From assembly GCF_030013205.1 (NCBI RefSeq), contig NZ_CP122648.1: a DNA stretch of 64,000 nt; one strand, 5' to 3'. Shown one piece after another: positions 9,001 through 18,000 of the stretch. Each line of letters opens with the position of its first letter. Within the stretch, counting starts at the first letter, position 1. The position numbers are program-made. The DNA comes from Escherichia coli. GTDB lineage: Bacteria; Pseudomonadota; Gammaproteobacteria; Enterobacterales; Enterobacteriaceae.

Positions 9001-12000
9001 AAATGGTTGAATGGCAAAGAAACGCTGGAAACATCAGATAATCTTGCCTGGCAATCGGCCTTCACCAGTATGAATCTTGAAGAGTTATCGATGCCGGGAA
9101 ATACTTTTTCTGTCCGTCAACTTAATCATTACATCCATTATTTGCAGGAAACTGGGCAACCCAGCAGCGAATACCGCCTTGCACTGTGGGAAAAACTGGG
9201 ACAACCCATCCTGACCCTGGCGATGATTTTGCTGGCTGTGCCGTTTACCTTTAGTGCCCCGCGTTCGCCTGGGATGGGTAGCCGTCTCGCTGTAGGCGTC
9301 ATCGTGGGCTTACTTACCTGGATCAGCTATCAAATCATGGTCAATCTGGGATTGCTATTTGCGTTGAGCGCACCTGTTACCGCGCTCGGTTTACCGGTAG
9401 CGTTTGTGCTGGTGGCGTTGAGCCTGGTGTATTGGTATGACAGACAACATTAAACCCGCCGTGGCGCAACACCACAGCGGGCTCACATTACTGCTTCAGA
9501 GTAGCGAACGCTTGAATGATGGCATCAATTTGCTCACGACTGTGGGCAGCGTTTACGCTACAGCGCAGCAGCGTGATGCCTGCAGGCGCGGCAGGTGGCA
9601 GGATAAGATTCACATAAACGCCCAGCGAAATAAGCTCGCGCCAGATGCGTAAACCTTCCTCTTTCGAACCGATTATTACTGGCACTACCGGGCTAATATG
9701 TGAACTTAACTCATAACCCAGTTTTTGCAGACCGTCATACAGATGGTTGGCATTATCCATCAGCTTTTGCCGCAACTCTGGTTGTGTAGCAATGGTTCTT
9801 AACGACGAGCGCACGGTCGCAATGCAGGACGGAGAAGGAGAGGCGGTAAAAATATACGGGCGGCTGCCGTAGCGCAGCACTTCCATCGCTTCCGAACCGA
9901 CAGCAAAACCGCCAATCGAGGCCAGACTTTTACTGAAAGTACCAACGATAATATCCACATCATCTTCAACGCCAACGGCTTCAGCCAGTCCGCGCCCCGT
10001 TGCGCCTAACACGCCAAACGAATGCGCTTCATCGACAATCAAATAACCACCGAGACGACGTTTGATATCAACAATTTCCGCCAGCGGCGCAACGTCACCG
10101 AGCATACTGTAGATGCCTTCAACGATGATAATCGCCTCTTTTGCCCGTTCACCGAGGCGAACCATGCGCCGTTCCAGATCTTTAGCATCGTTATGGCGGA
10201 AACGAATAATTTCCGCGCCACCGAGAGAACAGGCGTCATAAATACTGGCGTGGCTGTCGGCATCCAGTAACACCACGGCGTTATGGTCGGCAAGTGCGCT
10301 GATGACGCCTAAATTAGCGGTATAACCGGTTGAAAAAACGATAGCGGTAGGGCGATTAAAAAACTCGGCGATCTCTTTCTCTAACGCCAGATGCGGCGCA
10401 TAACTGCCGTTTGCCATACGAGAACCGGTGGTGCCGGTGCCTTGGGCCGCTAACGCTGCCTGACCTTCGGCGATGGCATCATGATTGAAGGTTAATCCGA
10501 GATAATTATTGGTCCCGGCCAGAATCACTTTTTTATTGCCGATCCGGCCTTCGGTGGCGGAATACACTCCATCAATACAGGTACCAAACGGCGTTAACCC
10601 GTTGTCACTAAATTGCAGTCGCTCGCCAGCAAGACGCGCATATTTATCGTATAGCCCCATTATTTATTCTCCAGCCATGGAAGTAGTGTTTCCATTAATT
10701 GCGCAGGGGTTTTGACATCCAGCAGAATATTAATAGGAATGGAAATATCGAATCTGTCTTCCAGCATCATTAAGAGATCCATCACTTTGATCGACTCCAG
10801 GCCAAGATCGTTGACGAGATCGCTGTCGGGCTTAATTTCCACACCGTTTTCGACCAAATCCTGTAAACAGGAAAGGATGTAATCCATTACTATTTCACGA
10901 TTTACCATAGAAACGTTAACACACCTTTAAACAAGACAATCAAAATAGCCCGTTGCGTAATGCGTGTTCCAGGCTAATCCCGGGAAACCAATTAATATCT
11001 TCAGAAATACGGTTATTACTTGCTGACCAGTCGGCGTGGGTTAATTCACGGATTTTCGAGCGGGTCAGCATAGGTTCTTTACCTGCCAGGCGACTCAACG
11101 TGGTACTGATATCCGCAAGGCAGGTGAGTACCGACAGAGGAATACCAACCATTCGAACGGAACCACAACGGGCGTCGGCGGCAAGCTGTCTTACGCGTTG
11201 CCAGTCATAGCCGCCGGCGACGCCATCGCATAATTCATAGGTTTGCGTCTGTACAGTTTCGGCGCTTAACCACTGCCCCACGGCTTGCGCGAAATCGGTG
11301 ACGTGCAGGAAAGAGAGCTGTGTATCTGGCGCACCAAGTCGTGGCAGTAGGCCGCGCAGCATCCAGTCAAACAGCGGTTTTAACTCTTTATCGCCGGGAC
11401 CATACACGGCTGTCGGGCGAAAAATGCCCAGCGTAATTTCGTCAGCCATTGCGGTCAGTCGTTGTTCGGCGACGTGTTTGGAATTTGCGTACCAGGAGAG
11501 TTCGGGATGGCGCGCCGCCAGCGAAGAGATAAACAGAAAACGTTGGCAAAAGCCGCTCTCTTTTGCCGCTTGCATCAGTCGCAGGCTGCCGTCAACGTTA
11601 CAGCGGGTAAAAATCTCTTCTTTGTGCCCGCGCACTTGCCCGGCGCAATGGACCACCGCGCTGGCTCCGGCAACCAGTTCGCTAAGTGAATGAGTATCTT
11701 CCAGAGAACCGCGCACCCAGGTGAGATTATCATTGACGTGAGCGCGGGCAGTACGCGTCAATGCGCGAACGTGAAAGCCGCGGGCGAGCAGGTTATCGAT
11801 AATATATTTACCGATAAACCCGGTAGCGCCCGTCACCGCGACAGTTTGATTCATGCCAGGGATTCCTGCACATGAAGGCTTGCAGCATAAGCCTTCTGAT
11901 AACGTTTTTTCGCTTCCGCACGGGCAGGCTTGCCGGAGGACGTTCGGGGAATACTGTGGGGCGGCAACAGATCGATAGCCGCGGTCACGCCAAATTCGCT

Positions 12001-15000: not shown

Positions 15001-18000
15001 TCGAAACCAATACAGGCATGAATAACATGCTGGAACGCATTGGGGCGGAGCCGTACAAGCGTTACCGATTGTATGAAAAGCAGATTTGATGGCAGTCACC
15101 CCTGCTTCATCTCCAGCGGCACCGCCGAGCGAATCAAATGGTGGCCTTCCAGCTCGATATCGTGGAGATTCTTTTTCACGGTCCGCACATGATCACGTGC
15201 TGCGCGCTGGGCGACGTGTGGCAGCCGCTGCAACACCGCGTTGTAGATCCGCGCATGCTGGCGATCGATCTGCTTTTTTTGCTGTGGTCGATGGTAGAGA
15301 TTATTTACGCTGGCAAACACTGAATTAAACATCAGGTCGGTCAATGATTGCAGTGTAAACACCAGCACCTGATTGTGAGAAGCCTGGCAAATGGCGAGAT
15401 GGAAAGCGTGATCCAGTTGTGCATGTTCGATCAGCGAAATCTCTTTGTTGTTCTCACTGGCGGCGAGCATTTTTTCATAACAGCGGGTTATCACAACAAA
15501 ATCAGCCTGGGTTCCCAGCGTTGCCGCCAGCCTTGCCGATTCGCCCTCCAGTAATGCGCGAACGTCGAGCAGATCGTACAGCGTTCGCGGCTGCGTACTG
15601 AACAGATGGATCAGCGGGCTGGTGTCCTGCACCCGATTGAGCCGTGCGACACGAGAATCGCGCCCCTGCGCCGTTTCAATAATCCCGCGCCCGCGCAGCA
15701 CGGTCAGCCCTTCACGCAGTGCGGAGCGTGAGAAGCCGAGCTTTTCACACAGTCGACGTTCCGAGGGAAGCGGCTGACCGACCTTCAGTACGCCGTCGAT
15801 AATTAACCGTTCGATACTCTCTGCAACCACTTCGCAAATAGGGCGACGTTCATCTTTCATTCCCGGACCTCGTGCACAGGTAGGACCAATTTTTCTGTTC
15901 TTGATTCGCAAAACACGCACATCACGTAAGTGATTATGTTACATCAATTTAACATTAAGTTAACCAAGGCAAGGTCACAGAGCTGGAAAAAAAATGGTCT
16001 GACCGGTAGCTAAAGAGATAGACGAAAACGAAAAGCCCGCTTAATAACTGTTCACAGAAGCAGCGCGCAAAAATCAGCTGCCACACAACACAACAAAGCG
16101 AAGCCTACTCATGAGCATCTTGTACGAAGAGCGTCTTGATGGCGCTTTACCCGATGTCGACCTCACATCGGTACTGATGGCACTGCGTGAGCATGTCCCT
16201 GGACTTGAGATCCTGCATACCGATGAGGAGATCATTCCTTACGAGTGTGACGGGTTGAGCGCGTATCGCACGCGTCCATTACTGGTTGTTTTGCCAAAGC
16301 AGATGGAACAGGTGACGGCGATTCTGGCTGTCTGCCACCGCCTGCGTGTACCGGTGGTGACCCGTGGTGCAGGCACCGGGCTTTCTGGTGGCGCGCTGCC
16401 GCTGGAAAAAGGTGTGTTGTTGGTGATGACGCGCTTTAAAGAGATCCTCGACATTAACCCCGTTGGTCGCCGCGCGCGCGTGCAGCCGGGCGTGCGTAAC
16501 CTGGCGATCTCCCAGGCCGTTGCGCCGCATAATCTCTATTACGCGCCGGATCCTTCCTCACAAATCGCCTGTTCAATTGGCGGCAATGTGGCGGAAAATG
16601 CCGGTGGCGTCCACTGCCTGAAATATGGTCTGACCGTACATAACCTGCTGAAAATTGAAGTGCAAACGCTGGACGGCGAGGCGCTGACGCTGGGATCGGA
16701 TGCGCTGGATTCGCCTGGTTTTGACCTGCTGGCGCTGTTCACCGGATCGGAAGGTATGCTCGGCGTGACCACCGAAGTGACGGTAAAACTGCTGCCGAAG
16801 CCGCCCGTGGCGCGGGTTCTGTTAGCCAGCTTTGACTCGGTAGAAAAAGCCGGACTTGCGGTTGGTTACATCATCGCCAATGGCATTATCCCCGGCGGGC
16901 TGGAGATGATGGATAACCTGTCGATCCGCGCAGCGGAAGATTTTATACATGCCGGTTATCCCGTCGACGCCGAAGCGATTTTGTTATGCGAGCTGGACGG
17001 CGTGGAGTCTGACGTACAGGAAGACTGCGAGCGGGTTAACGACATCTTGTTGAAAGCGGGCGCGACTGACGTCCGGCTGGCACAGGACGAAGCAGAGCGC
17101 GTACGTTTCTGGGCCGGTCGCAAAAATGCGTTCCCTGCGGTAGGACGAATCTCCCCGGATTACTACTGCATGGATGGCACCATCCCGCGCCGCGCCCTGC
17201 CTGGCGTACTGGAAGGCATTGCCCGTTTATCGCAGCAATATGATTTACGTGTTGCTAACGTCTTTCATGCCGGAGATGGCAACATGCACCCGTTAATCCT
17301 TTTCGATGCCAACGAACCCGGTGAATTTGCCCGCGCGGAAGAGCTGGGCGGGAAGATCCTCGAACTCTGCGTTGAAGTTGGCGGCAGCATCAGTGGGGAA
17401 CATGGCATCGGGCGAGAAAAAATCAATCAAATGTGCGCCCAGTTCAACAGCGATGAAATCACGACCTTCCATGCGGTCAAGGCGGCGTTTGACCCAGATG
17501 GTTTGCTGAACCCTGGGAAAAACATTCCCACGCTACACCGCTGTGCTGAATTTGGTGCCATGCATGTGCATCACGGTCATTTACCTTTCCCTGAACTGGA
17601 GCGTTTCTGATGCTACGCGAGTGTGATTACAGCCAGGCGCTGCTGGAGCAGGTGAATCAGGCGATTAGCGATAAAACGCCGCTGGTGATTCAGGGCAGCA
17701 ATAGCAAAGCCTTTTTAGGTCGTCCTGTCACCGGGCAAACGCTGGATGTGCGTTGTCATCGCGGCATTGTTAATTACGACCCGACCGAGCTGGTGATAAC
17801 CGCTCGTGCCGGAACGCCGCTGGTGGCGATTGAAGCGGCGCTGGAGAGCGCCGGGCAAATGCTCCCCTGCGAGCCGCCACATTATGGTGAAGAAGCCACC
17901 TGGGGCGGGATGGTCGCCTGCGGGCTGGCGGGGCCGCGTCGCCCGTGGAGCGGTTCGGTCCGCGATTTTGTCCTCGGCACGCGCATCATTACCGGCACTG

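What the first reader, a model, noticed from the sequence alone, without database searches (positions are those of the whole stretch)
9488..15089. Candidate sphingolipid/ceramide-type aminolipid biosynthesis operon (acyl-AMP ligase, SDR reductase, ACP, alpha-oxoamine synthase, plus GNAT-like YghO)
Seen: four minus-strand genes with overlapping or near-overlapping stop/start codons (ATGA at 11851-11854, TAATG at 10658-10662) encode an AMP-binding ligase (YTSGSTRFPRGV), a Rossmann SDR/epimerase-family protein (VTGATGFIG), an acyl carrier protein (DLGLESI) and a PLP alpha-oxoamine synthase (GTFSKSLAS). Divergently across a 370-bp AT-rich region lies yghO, which I recall as GNAT-like. Established: in the bacterial ceramide pathway described for Caulobacter, serine palmitoyltransferase, a dedicated ACP, an acyl-ACP synthetase and an epimerase-family reductase (CerR) cluster together, and a GNAT-type ceramide synthase (bCerS) does the N-acylation. 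Inference: this locus encodes a sphingoid-base or related aminolipid pathway. I am not aware of such a pathway being described in E. coli.
Basis: partly seen in the sequence, partly recalled or inferred. Interest (0 to 1): 0.88.

Follow-up and report, generated by a model that had tools for sequence, protein, structure and literature searches.

The report
E. coli ceramide (sphingolipid) gene cluster
This is the real but already published sphingolipid (dihydroceramide) gene cluster carried by about three quarters of E. coli strains and lost from K-12; three of its enzymes have been tested biochemically, but nobody has yet shown which lipid E. coli makes with it.

Summary
Four tightly packed minus-strand genes encode an alpha-oxoamine synthase, an acyl carrier protein, an epimerase-family SDR and a fatty acyl-AMP ligase. 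yghO lies divergently across a roughly 370-bp region of 33% GC.

The synthase passes NCBI's curated serine palmitoyltransferase model. Its closest solved structures are the Sphingomonas SPTs, not BioF, Kbl or CqsA. YghO matches no sequence family, but it models with high confidence as a tandem-GNAT acyltransferase.

The locus is not new. Padilla-Gómez et al. 2022 (PMC9386255) describe this exact locus in E. coli BL21(DE3), whose proteins are 97-100% identical to those here. They showed that AcpR carries phosphopantetheine and that AasR, AcpR and SPT together make 3-oxo-sphinganine. They named yghO and the SDR as the predicted N-acyltransferase and reductase. RefSeq already labels the gene spt. 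A 2026 preprint draws the E. coli UTI89 sphingolipid locus in the figure it cites for LptF2/LptG2 paralogs in such loci.

Added here:
- The four-gene core is in 4067 of 5426 complete E. coli genomes.
- It is under purifying selection.
- K-12 lacks it, and an IS5 element sits at the site.
- It belongs to a 13-gene set that is also contiguous in Serratia.

Still open are the native product, the conditions of expression, and the roles of yghQ, yghR, yghS and yghT.

The parts
9488..10660 (-). spt, serine palmitoyltransferase (PLP-dependent alpha-oxoamine synthase), 390 aa
   Evidence: NF047599 scores 598 bits against a cut-off of 500. The best PDB matches are Sphingomonas SPT 2jg2 and 2x8u. K244, H137, D210, H213 and R366 align with K265, H159, D231, H234 and R390 of S. 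paucimobilis SPT. It is 99% identical to BL21(DE3) ECD_02854, which formed 3-oxo-sphinganine from L-serine.
10660..10908 (-). acpR, specialised acyl carrier protein, 82 aa (LESI phosphopantetheine serine)
   Evidence: It gives ACP-family hits, all below the cut-offs for housekeeping ACPs. It carries the same RefSeq protein id, WP_000248097.1, as BL21(DE3). The BL21 protein ECD_02853 was labelled with beta-alanine, indicating a 4'-phosphopantetheine group.
10940..11854 (-). Epimerase-family SDR, the predicted 3-oxo(sphinganine/ceramide) reductase (CerR/Epi orthologue), 304 aa
   Evidence: Pfam Epimerase, E = 2e-23. It has the GATGFIG Rossmann motif at residues 9-15 and Y122-x3-K126. It is 97% identical to BL21 ECD_02852. 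Published identity to Caulobacter CC_1164 is 34%, E = 7e-38. Its activity has not been tested in E. coli.
11851..13575 (-). aasR, fatty acyl-AMP ligase acting as acyl-AcpR synthetase (start ATG at 13575 or 13542)
   Evidence: NF006624 fatty acyl-AMP ligase scores 865 bits against a cut-off of 600. It is 98% identical to BL21 ECD_02851. AasREc, AcpREc and SPTEc together gave 3-oxo-sphinganine in vivo.
13576..13946 (.). AT-rich divergent intergenic region, presumed to hold both promoters
   Evidence: GC is 0.326; sequence. The consensus promoter scan over 9300-15300 found 8 sites against 6.4 expected from shuffles, so no promoter is assigned.
13947..15089 (+). yghO, tandem-GNAT acyltransferase, the predicted bacterial ceramide synthase (bCerS/Aca orthologue), 380 aa
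8374..9453 (+). LptG paralogue (LptG2), candidate sphingolipid exporter permease
   Evidence: TIGR04408 scores 305 bits. It is adjacent to spt in E. coli, Pluralibacter and Serratia. The Caulobacter LptF2/LptG2 proteins are reported as required for sphingolipid transport, and the preprint's figure shows the E. coli UTI89 locus.
7307..8377 (+). LptF paralogue (LptF2)
   Evidence: TIGR04407 scores 317 bits. Context is the same as for LptG2.
9451..9485 (.). 16-bp-stem hairpin between the convergent lptG2 and spt genes, a likely bidirectional terminator
   Evidence: Terminator-like site with 16 pairs, 9 of them G-C. The T-tract is weak.
6713..7276 (+). YtfJ-family protein with a hydrophobic N-terminus that looks like a signal peptide; travels with the module
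   Evidence: TIGR01626 scores 216 bits. It is conserved next to lptF2 in Pluralibacter and Serratia.
5881..6704 (+). Conserved hypothetical gene, frameshifted in this strain
   Evidence: It is split into two ORFs here. Compared with the intact 274-aa BL21(DE3) gene, one base is missing near 6232. RefSeq marks it as frameshifted in the strain identical to the window over 6500-15100.
4532..5881 (+). Full-length yghQ, a MOP/Wzx-type flippase-like membrane protein of 449 aa
   Evidence: Remote match to a MOP flippase family. The orthologues carry Pfam Polysacc_synt. The K-12 gene is annotated shorter and abuts IS5.
2117..4486 (.). yghT (2117-2809, -), yghS (2983-3696, +) and yghR (3728-4486, +): three paralogous P-loop, dTMP-kinase-like proteins of unknown substrate

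Best explanation
This locus is the E. coli version of the 'rhodobacterial' dihydroceramide pathway.

Shown experimentally in BL21(DE3) proteins 98-100% identical to those here: the fatty acyl-AMP ligase (AasR) activates a free fatty acid and loads it onto the dedicated carrier protein AcpR. Spt then condenses acyl-AcpR with L-serine, releasing CO2, to give 3-oxo-sphinganine.

Inferred from fold, orthology and gene context: the tandem-GNAT protein YghO adds the second acyl chain to the amine, and the epimerase-family SDR reduces the 3-keto group, giving dihydroceramide. The order of these two steps is disputed in the literature.

Inferred from context and from work in Caulobacter: the neighbouring LptF2/LptG2 paralogues, probably working with the housekeeping LptB, extract the lipid from the inner membrane for delivery to the outer membrane. 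YghQ may act as the flippase.

The cluster is a conserved, selected part of most E. coli genomes. It is absent from K-12, where an IS5 element sits at the site.
For: Sequence and structure:
- Spt passes the curated SPT equivalog and fails the BioF, Kbl, CqsA and ALAS models.
- PDB ranking is SPT, then Kbl, BioF and CqsA. Spt is only 32% and 34% identical to E. coli's own BioF and Kbl.
- The ligase passes the fatty acyl-AMP ligase model.
- The SDR has Rossmann and YxxxK motifs and a Pfam Epimerase match.
- YghO models as a tandem GNAT.

Identity to the published proteins: 97-99% to BL21(DE3) ECD_02851, ECD_02852 and ECD_02854, with the same protein accessions for the ACP and YghO.

Published experiments on those proteins (PMC9386255):
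- AcpREc carries 4'-phosphopantetheine.
- SPTEc makes 3-oxo-sphinganine from [14C]serine and prefers acyl-AcpR.
- AasREc, AcpREc and SPTEc together make 3-oxo-sphinganine in vivo.
- Ceramide-like and sphinganine-like spots appeared, which the authors say were possibly formed by intrinsic BL21(DE3) enzymes, suggesting ECD_02852 and ECD_02850.
- Table S2 gives the orthology figures.

Conservation:
- The four-gene core is in 4067 of 5426 genomes.
- dN/dS is 0.03-0.19 across the module.
- The gene set is conserved in Pluralibacter and Serratia with different flanking genes.
- Distant YghO homologues lie beside ACP plus AOS genes or LptF/LptG pairs.

Transport: LptF2/LptG2 role in Caulobacter.
Against: - I found no report of a sphingolipid made by E. 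coli from its chromosomal locus. BL21(DE3) empty-vector controls showed no 3-oxo-sphinganine, so the locus may be silent under laboratory conditions.
- The enzymatic activities of YghO and the SDR have not been tested for E. coli.
- YghO matches no curated sequence family.
- I did not align YghO or the SDR to Caulobacter bCerS or CerR myself. Those figures come from the paper's Table S2.
- CerR is reported to be periplasmic in Caulobacter, yet the E. coli SDR starts directly with its Rossmann strand and shows no signal peptide.
- One neighbouring module gene is frameshifted in this strain.
Confidence: 0.85

Rival explanations
1. The locus is a cryptic or silenced remnant. Its enzymes are competent when over-expressed, but E. 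coli makes no sphingolipid in nature.
For: Empty-vector BL21(DE3) made no detectable 3-oxo-sphinganine. The divergent promoter region has 33% GC, which is typical of xenogeneically silenced DNA (my inference). K-12 lacks the block and remains viable. A neighbouring gene is frameshifted in this strain.
Against: dN/dS is 0.03-0.19 for every gene of the module between two E. coli lineages, overlapping the range of an ordinary chromosomal gene (pitB, 0.01). Intact copies are present in 75% of complete genomes. The gene set is conserved across genera. The authors suggest that chromosomal ECD_02850 and ECD_02852 may have converted plasmid-made 3-oxo-sphinganine.
Confidence: 0.1
2. The pathway makes a different amino-lipid rather than a serine-derived sphingoid base. 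Candidates are a product from another amino acid (alanine, glycine or cysteate), or a CqsA-like signalling ketone.
For: Alpha-oxoamine synthases are promiscuous. The position of Arg378 in S. paucimobilis SPT is Leu354 here. The native E. coli product has never been identified.
Against: SPTEc incorporated L-[14C]serine into a product that co-migrated with 3-oxo-sphinganine. The synthase scores 598 bits on the SPT equivalog but only 221 on the CqsA model, and 207 bits against the solved cysteate acyltransferase chain. The same Leu is found in the three other ACP-linked Spt sequences examined, so it is not a specificity switch peculiar to E. coli.
Confidence: 0.04
3. The synthase is a spare BioF or Kbl isozyme serving biotin or threonine metabolism, and its neighbours are unrelated.
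For: It belongs to the same superfamily and gives BioF and Kbl hits with E-values of 1e-100 and 1e-89.
Against: It falls below the curated cut-offs for BioF (334 against 426) and Kbl (298 against 460). It is 32-34% identical to E. coli BioF and Kbl. It is translationally coupled to a dedicated ACP. Activity with serine has been published.
Confidence: 0.01

Closest known systems
E. coli BL21(DE3) sphingolipid locus ECD_02850 to ECD_02854 (Padilla-Gómez et al. 2022, Front Microbiol, PMC9386255)
   Same: It has the same genes in the same order at the same chromosomal site, between glcC and yghQ. Spt, AasR and the SDR are 97-99% identical, and the ACP and YghO have the same protein accessions.
   Different: Only strain-level substitutions. 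In this strain the neighbouring hypothetical gene carries a 1-bp frameshift.
Caulobacter crescentus ceramide cluster (spt CC_1162, acpR CC_1163, epi/cerR CC_1164, aasR CC_1165, aca/bcerS CC_1154, with LptF2/LptG2 CC_1156/CC_1155)
   Same: It has the same five enzyme families and the LptF/LptG paralogues. Published identities to the E. coli proteins are 53% for Spt, 34% for the reductase and 44% for the acyltransferase. According to the paper, E. coli BL21 and Caulobacter are the only genomes among those it compared in which all five genes are clustered.
   Different: In the gene set seen here, E. coli lacks the Caulobacter head-group genes (cpgABC, including the DAG-kinase-type ceramide kinase) and lptC2. 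Instead it carries yghQ, yghR, yghS, yghT, a YtfJ-family gene and a hypothetical gene. AasREc does not acylate Caulobacter AcpR. No native E. coli sphingolipid has been reported.
Sphingomonas paucimobilis and S. wittichii serine palmitoyltransferase (PDB 2jg2, 2x8u)
   Same: These are the closest solved structures, at 373-376 bits over the full length. The catalytic Lys, His, Asp, His and Arg390 equivalents are conserved.
   Different: Leu354 replaces Arg378 of the RPPATP loop. In Sphingomonas the aasR gene lies far from acpR-spt.
Tandem-GNAT acyltransferases (MAB_4324 7q3a, MshD 1ozp, Eis, N-myristoyltransferase)
   Different: Sequence identity is only 8-17% across these fold matches. YghO belongs to its own large family, with 6502 cluster representatives and no Pfam model.

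Membership tests
Serine palmitoyltransferase, rhodobacterial type (NCBIfam NF047599) | Whole-protein score above the curated equivalog cut-off and above that of sister AOS families | tested here: met
   The score is 598 bits against a cut-off of 500. BioF (334 against 426), Kbl (298 against 460), CqsA (221 against 428) and ALAS (220 against 339) are all below cut-off.
Serine palmitoyltransferase, rhodobacterial type (NCBIfam NF047599) | PLP-binding lysine and the catalytic His, Asp, His and Arg residues of solved SPTs | tested here: met
   K244, H137, D210, H213 and R366 align with K265, H159, D231, H234 and R390 of 2jg2. The Arg378 equivalent is Leu.
Serine palmitoyltransferase, rhodobacterial type (NCBIfam NF047599) | Catalyses L-serine plus acyl thioester to 3-oxo-sphinganine | not testable with these tools
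   This was published for the 99%-identical BL21(DE3) enzyme, using cell extracts, TLC and [14C]serine.
Serine palmitoyltransferase, rhodobacterial type (NCBIfam NF047599) | Gene immediately preceded by a dedicated acp gene | tested here: met
   The ACP stop and the spt start overlap as TAATG.
AcpR (specialised ACP for sphingolipid synthesis) | Small PP-binding protein with a modified serine, distinct from the housekeeping AcpP | tested here: met
   It has 82 aa and an LESI motif. Its ACP-family hits are all below the cut-offs for housekeeping ACPs. The identical BL21 protein was labelled with beta-alanine.
AasR (acyl-AcpR synthetase, a fatty acyl-AMP ligase) | Adenylate-forming fold of the FAAL subfamily, functionally paired with AcpR and Spt | tested here: met
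   NF006624 scores 865 bits against a cut-off of 600. It is translationally coupled to the downstream SDR gene. In vivo function has been published for the 98%-identical protein. Selectivity for ACP over CoA was shown only for the Caulobacter enzyme.
CerR/Epi (bacterial 3-keto sphingolipid reductase) | Extended-SDR (epimerase family) fold with an NAD(P)-binding motif and YxxxK | tested here: met
   Pfam Epimerase E = 2e-23. GATGFIG and Y122-x3-K126 are present.
CerR/Epi (bacterial 3-keto sphingolipid reductase) | Orthology to Caulobacter CC_1164 and reductase activity on a 3-oxo sphingoid substrate | not tested
   The only evidence is the published BLAST figure of 34% identity, E = 7e-38. There is no enzymology for the E. 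coli protein, and I held no Caulobacter sequence to align.
bCerS/Aca (bacterial ceramide synthase) | GNAT-type acyl-CoA N-acyltransferase fold | tested here: met
   [not shown]
bCerS/Aca (bacterial ceramide synthase) | Genomic association with spt across taxa | tested here: met
   It is adjacent to the spt genes in E. coli, Pluralibacter and Serratia. A homologue 42% identical follows ACP and AOS genes, and one 50% identical precedes an LptF/LptG pair.
bCerS/Aca (bacterial ceramide synthase) | N-acylates a sphingoid base | not testable with these tools
   This has not been published for YghO. The only hint is ceramide-like TLC spots in BL21.
LptF2/LptG2 sphingolipid transport permeases | A second LptF/LptG pair encoded inside a sphingolipid locus | tested here: met
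   TIGR04407 scores 317 bits and TIGR04408 scores 305 bits. The pair lies beside spt. The transport role has been shown only in Caulobacter.

The most novel reading that the evidence does not exclude
The functional unit is a 13-gene envelope-lipid module: yghT, yghS, yghR, yghQ, a hypothetical gene, a ytfJ-like gene, lptF2, lptG2, spt, acpR, cerR, aasR and yghO. With it, most wild E. coli would make and export an outer-membrane sphingolipid under conditions not yet identified. The three P-loop, dTMP-kinase-like paralogues YghR, YghS and YghT would build or phosphorylate a head group by chemistry unlike Caulobacter's DAG-kinase-type ceramide kinase. K-12's missing block, with IS5 at the site, would then explain why this lipid class has been overlooked in the model organism.
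Probability: 0.35. Interest if true: 0.6.

Novelty: already known. Interest (0 to 1): 0.22.

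Why it matters
E. coli is the textbook organism for membrane-lipid biology and is usually described as having only three major glycerophospholipids plus LPS. About three quarters of sequenced strains, including BL21(DE3), pathogens and this window's strain, carry a selected and apparently complete ceramide pathway with its own LptF/LptG-type exporter, and K-12 has lost it. 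The model strain may therefore misrepresent the species' envelope.

The genes and the first three biochemical steps are already published, so this finding adds no new system. What remains open and directly testable is whether and when E. coli makes the lipid, what its head group is, and what it does for outer-membrane robustness, phage or antibiotic susceptibility, or host interaction.

Tried and rejected
- The promoter and terminator consensus scan was no better than shuffled sequence (8 promoter-like sites against 6.4 expected, 7 terminator-like against 7.5). I therefore assign no promoter.
- YghR and the hypothetical protein had no significant PDB sequence relatives.
- Stankeviciute et al. 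2022 (Nat Chem Biol) and Olea-Ozuna et al. 2021 (Environ Microbiol) are not in the held library. What I say about them comes from papers that cite them.
- Published Table S2 and three context look-ups already answered the orthology question.
- I considered that Leu354 in place of Arg378 might signal a different amino-acid substrate. I rejected this because the same Leu occurs in the three other ACP-linked Spt sequences examined and SPTEc uses serine.

Full report
**1. Observation**

The ORF table shows four co-directional minus-strand genes:
- 9488-10660, 390 aa, containing GTFSKSLAS.
- 10660-10908, 82 aa, containing DLGLESI.
- 10940-11854, 304 aa, containing VTGATGFIG.
- 11851-13602 as the longest ORF, containing YTSGSTRFPRGV.

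yghO lies divergently at 13947-15089 (380 aa). The quoted junctions are exact. ATGA at 11854-11851 overlaps the ligase stop with the SDR start. TAATG at 10662-10658 overlaps the ACP stop with the synthase start. The region between the ligase start (ATG at 13575 or 13542) and yghO is 371-404 bp. GC is 0.326 in the 13500-13999 window against about 0.51-0.57 in the windows on either side.

**2. Where this is**

The window is E. coli chromosome. The gene order is pitB, yghT, yghS, yghR, yghQ, a hypothetical gene, a ytfJ-family gene, lptF-like, lptG-like, then spt, acp, SDR and ligase, then yghO, glcC and glcDEFGB.

RefSeq already annotates the synthase as 'spt: serine palmitoyltransferase' and the ligase as 'fatty acyl-AMP ligase'. 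The four-gene core is present at 80% coverage or more, and 95-100% identity, in 4067 of 5426 complete E. coli genomes. In K-12 MG1655 an IS5 element (insH9) sits between yghO and a yghQ that is annotated shorter. Everything from the missing part of yghQ through the ligase is absent there. The first ~24 residues of K-12 YghO differ from the protein in this window.

**3. What the proteins are, from my own tests**

*Synthase.*
- It scores 598 bits on NCBIfam NF047599, the serine palmitoyltransferase equivalog (cut-off 500).
- It is below cut-off for BioF (334 against 426), Kbl (298 against 460), CqsA (221 against 428) and ALAS.
- Against solved structures it ranks Sphingomonas SPTs first (373-376 bits), then Sphingobacterium SPT (265), cysteate acyltransferase (207), Kbl (204), BioF (176-182) and CqsA (124).
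- The PLP lysine and the catalytic His, Asp, His and Arg390 equivalents are conserved.
- It is 32% and 34% identical to E. coli's own BioF and Kbl, so it is a third, distinct paralogue.

*Ligase.* It passes the fatty acyl-AMP ligase model, 865 bits against a cut-off of 600.

*SDR.* It is an extended (epimerase-family) SDR with Rossmann and YxxxK motifs.

*YghO.*
- It matches nothing in Pfam, NCBIfam or PDB by sequence.
- It belongs to a very large family, with 6502 cluster representatives at E <= 1e-3.
- An AF2 model built on 68 diverse members is highly confident (pLDDT 96, pTM 0.92).

**4. The literature settles both function and novelty**

Padilla-Gómez et al. 2022 (PMC9386255) describe this exact locus in E. 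coli BL21(DE3). Their names are aca = yghO (ECD_02850), aasR (ECD_02851), epi (ECD_02852), acpR (ECD_02853) and spt (ECD_02854).

The window's Spt, AasR and SDR are 99%, 98% and 97% identical to the BL21 proteins. The ACP and YghO carry the same RefSeq protein ids in BL21 and in a strain identical to the window over 6500-15100.

The paper's results on these proteins:
- AcpREc incorporates beta-alanine, which indicates a 4'-phosphopantetheine group.
- SPTEc forms a 3-oxo-sphinganine-like product from L-[14C]serine and prefers acyl-AcpR to acyl-CoA or acyl-AcpP.
- Co-expression of AasREc, AcpREc and SPTEc yields 3-oxo-sphinganine in vivo, and AasREc is specific for its own AcpR.
- Sphinganine-like and ceramide-like spots appeared. 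The authors say these were possibly formed by intrinsic BL21(DE3) enzymes and suggest ECD_02852 and ECD_02850.
- Table S2 gives 53% (Spt), 34% (Epi) and 44% (Aca, E = 1e-107) identity to the Caulobacter enzymes.

The same paper cites earlier reviews (Geiger 2010, 2019) for the SPT phylogeny in which the E. coli B enzyme groups with the rhodobacterial SPTs. A 2026 preprint (10.64898/2026.04.12.717747) reports that LptF2/LptG2 paralogues in the Caulobacter sphingolipid locus are required for sphingolipid transport. It draws the E. coli UTI89 sphingolipid operons in the figure it cites for such paralogues being present in alpha- and gammaproteobacterial loci.

**5. Mechanism**

*Shown in near-identical proteins.* AasR loads a fatty acid onto AcpR. 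Spt condenses acyl-AcpR with serine to give 3-oxo-sphinganine.

*Inferred.* YghO N-acylates and the SDR reduces the 3-keto group, giving dihydroceramide. One group proposes acylation first, followed by reduction in the periplasm. The other proposes reduction first. The E. coli SDR begins directly with its Rossmann strand (MNQTVAVTGATG...), so no classical signal peptide is visible. That observation bears on the dispute but does not resolve it.

*Inferred from context.* YghQ, a MOP/Wzx-like protein, may flip the lipid. LptF2/LptG2 may extract it, borrowing LptB as in Caulobacter.

**6. What I can add**

(a) *Purifying selection.* dN/dS between this strain and BL21(DE3) is:
- 0.04 for spt, 0.14 for the SDR and 0.15 for aasR;
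- 0.07 for each of lptF2 and lptG2, and 0.03 for yghQ;
- 0.06-0.19 for yghR, yghS and yghT;
- 0.01 for pitB, for comparison.

The genes are being maintained, not decaying.

(b) *The unit is larger than the finding.* All 13 genes from yghT to yghO are contiguous in Serratia liquefaciens. There the internal arrangement differs (yghT abuts spt) and so do the flanking genes (dgkA and a MATE gene on one side, mipA on the other). Pluralibacter gergoviae has the E. coli-like order from yghQ to yghO, flanked by usp and pit genes, with a DJ-1-like gene inserted next to spt. Conservation of the gene set while its surroundings and order change argues for functional linkage.

(c) *Distant YghO homologues keep the association.* One that is 42% identical directly follows ACP and AOS genes. 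One that is 50% identical precedes an LptF/LptG pair.

**7. What remains unknown**

I found no report of a sphingolipid produced from the chromosomal locus. Empty-vector BL21(DE3) shows none, and the AT-rich divergent control region is compatible with silencing, which is my inference. The native product, its head group, the conditions of expression and its physiological role are all open. So are the activities of YghO and the SDR in E. coli.

**8. Verdict**

I score interest low, at 0.22. The residual value lies in the 13-gene module and the unanswered question of the native lipid. I give that reading a probability of 0.35 and an interest of about 0.6 if true.

Noticed in passing
window 2117-9453: yghT, yghS, yghR, full-length yghQ (MOP flippase-like), a hypothetical gene, a YtfJ-family gene and an LptF/LptG paralogue pair travel with the spt genes. 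All 13 genes are contiguous in Serratia, with a different internal order and different flanks. Pluralibacter shows the same set from yghQ onward within the 10-kb flank I fetched. This suggests one functional module larger than the finding.
   Followed up: partly
window 5881-6704 (about 6232): The conserved hypothetical gene between yghQ and the ytfJ-like gene carries a 1-bp deletion compared with BL21(DE3). This splits it into two ORFs of 143 and 157 aa. RefSeq marks it as frameshifted in the strain identical to the window over 6500-15100.
   Followed up: yes
L002 (K-12 MG1655 3129043-3132408) against window 4532-15089: In K-12, IS5 (insH9) lies between yghO and a yghQ that is annotated shorter. 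The intervening genes, roughly 8 kb, are absent. The first ~24 residues of K-12 YghO differ from the protein in this window, and K-12 annotates it as a putative DNA-binding regulator, which the GNAT fold contradicts.
   Followed up: yes
window 9488-10660, Spt residue 354: Leu replaces Arg378 of S. paucimobilis SPT (RPPATP becomes LPPAAP). The same Leu is found in the Serratia and Pluralibacter Spts and in a distant metagenomic ACP-linked Spt. E. coli BioF has Arg at this position.
   Followed up: partly
window 2117-3696 and 7307-9453: Possible annotation pitfalls in RefSeq. yghS and yghT are named 'dTMP kinase' although they score 23-25 bits against a cut-off of 83. The sphingolipid-locus paralogues are named lptF and lptG because they pass the LptF and LptG equivalog cut-offs, so these genomes appear to have two copies of each.
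   Followed up: partly
window 10940-11854, N-terminus of the SDR: The protein starts MNQTVAVTGATGFIG, with the Rossmann motif at residue 9 and no visible Sec or Tat signal. Its Caulobacter counterpart CerR is reported to be periplasmic.
   Followed up: no
window 9451-9485: A 16-bp-stem, GC-rich hairpin sits exactly between the convergent stop codons of lptG2 (9453) and spt (9488). It is probably a bidirectional terminator, although the T-tract is weak.
   Followed up: no
E. coli genome search: One of about 4180 matches to the locus lies on a record classed as a plasmid rather than a chromosome. Some genomes carry two copies.
   Followed up: no
[not shown]
   Followed up: no
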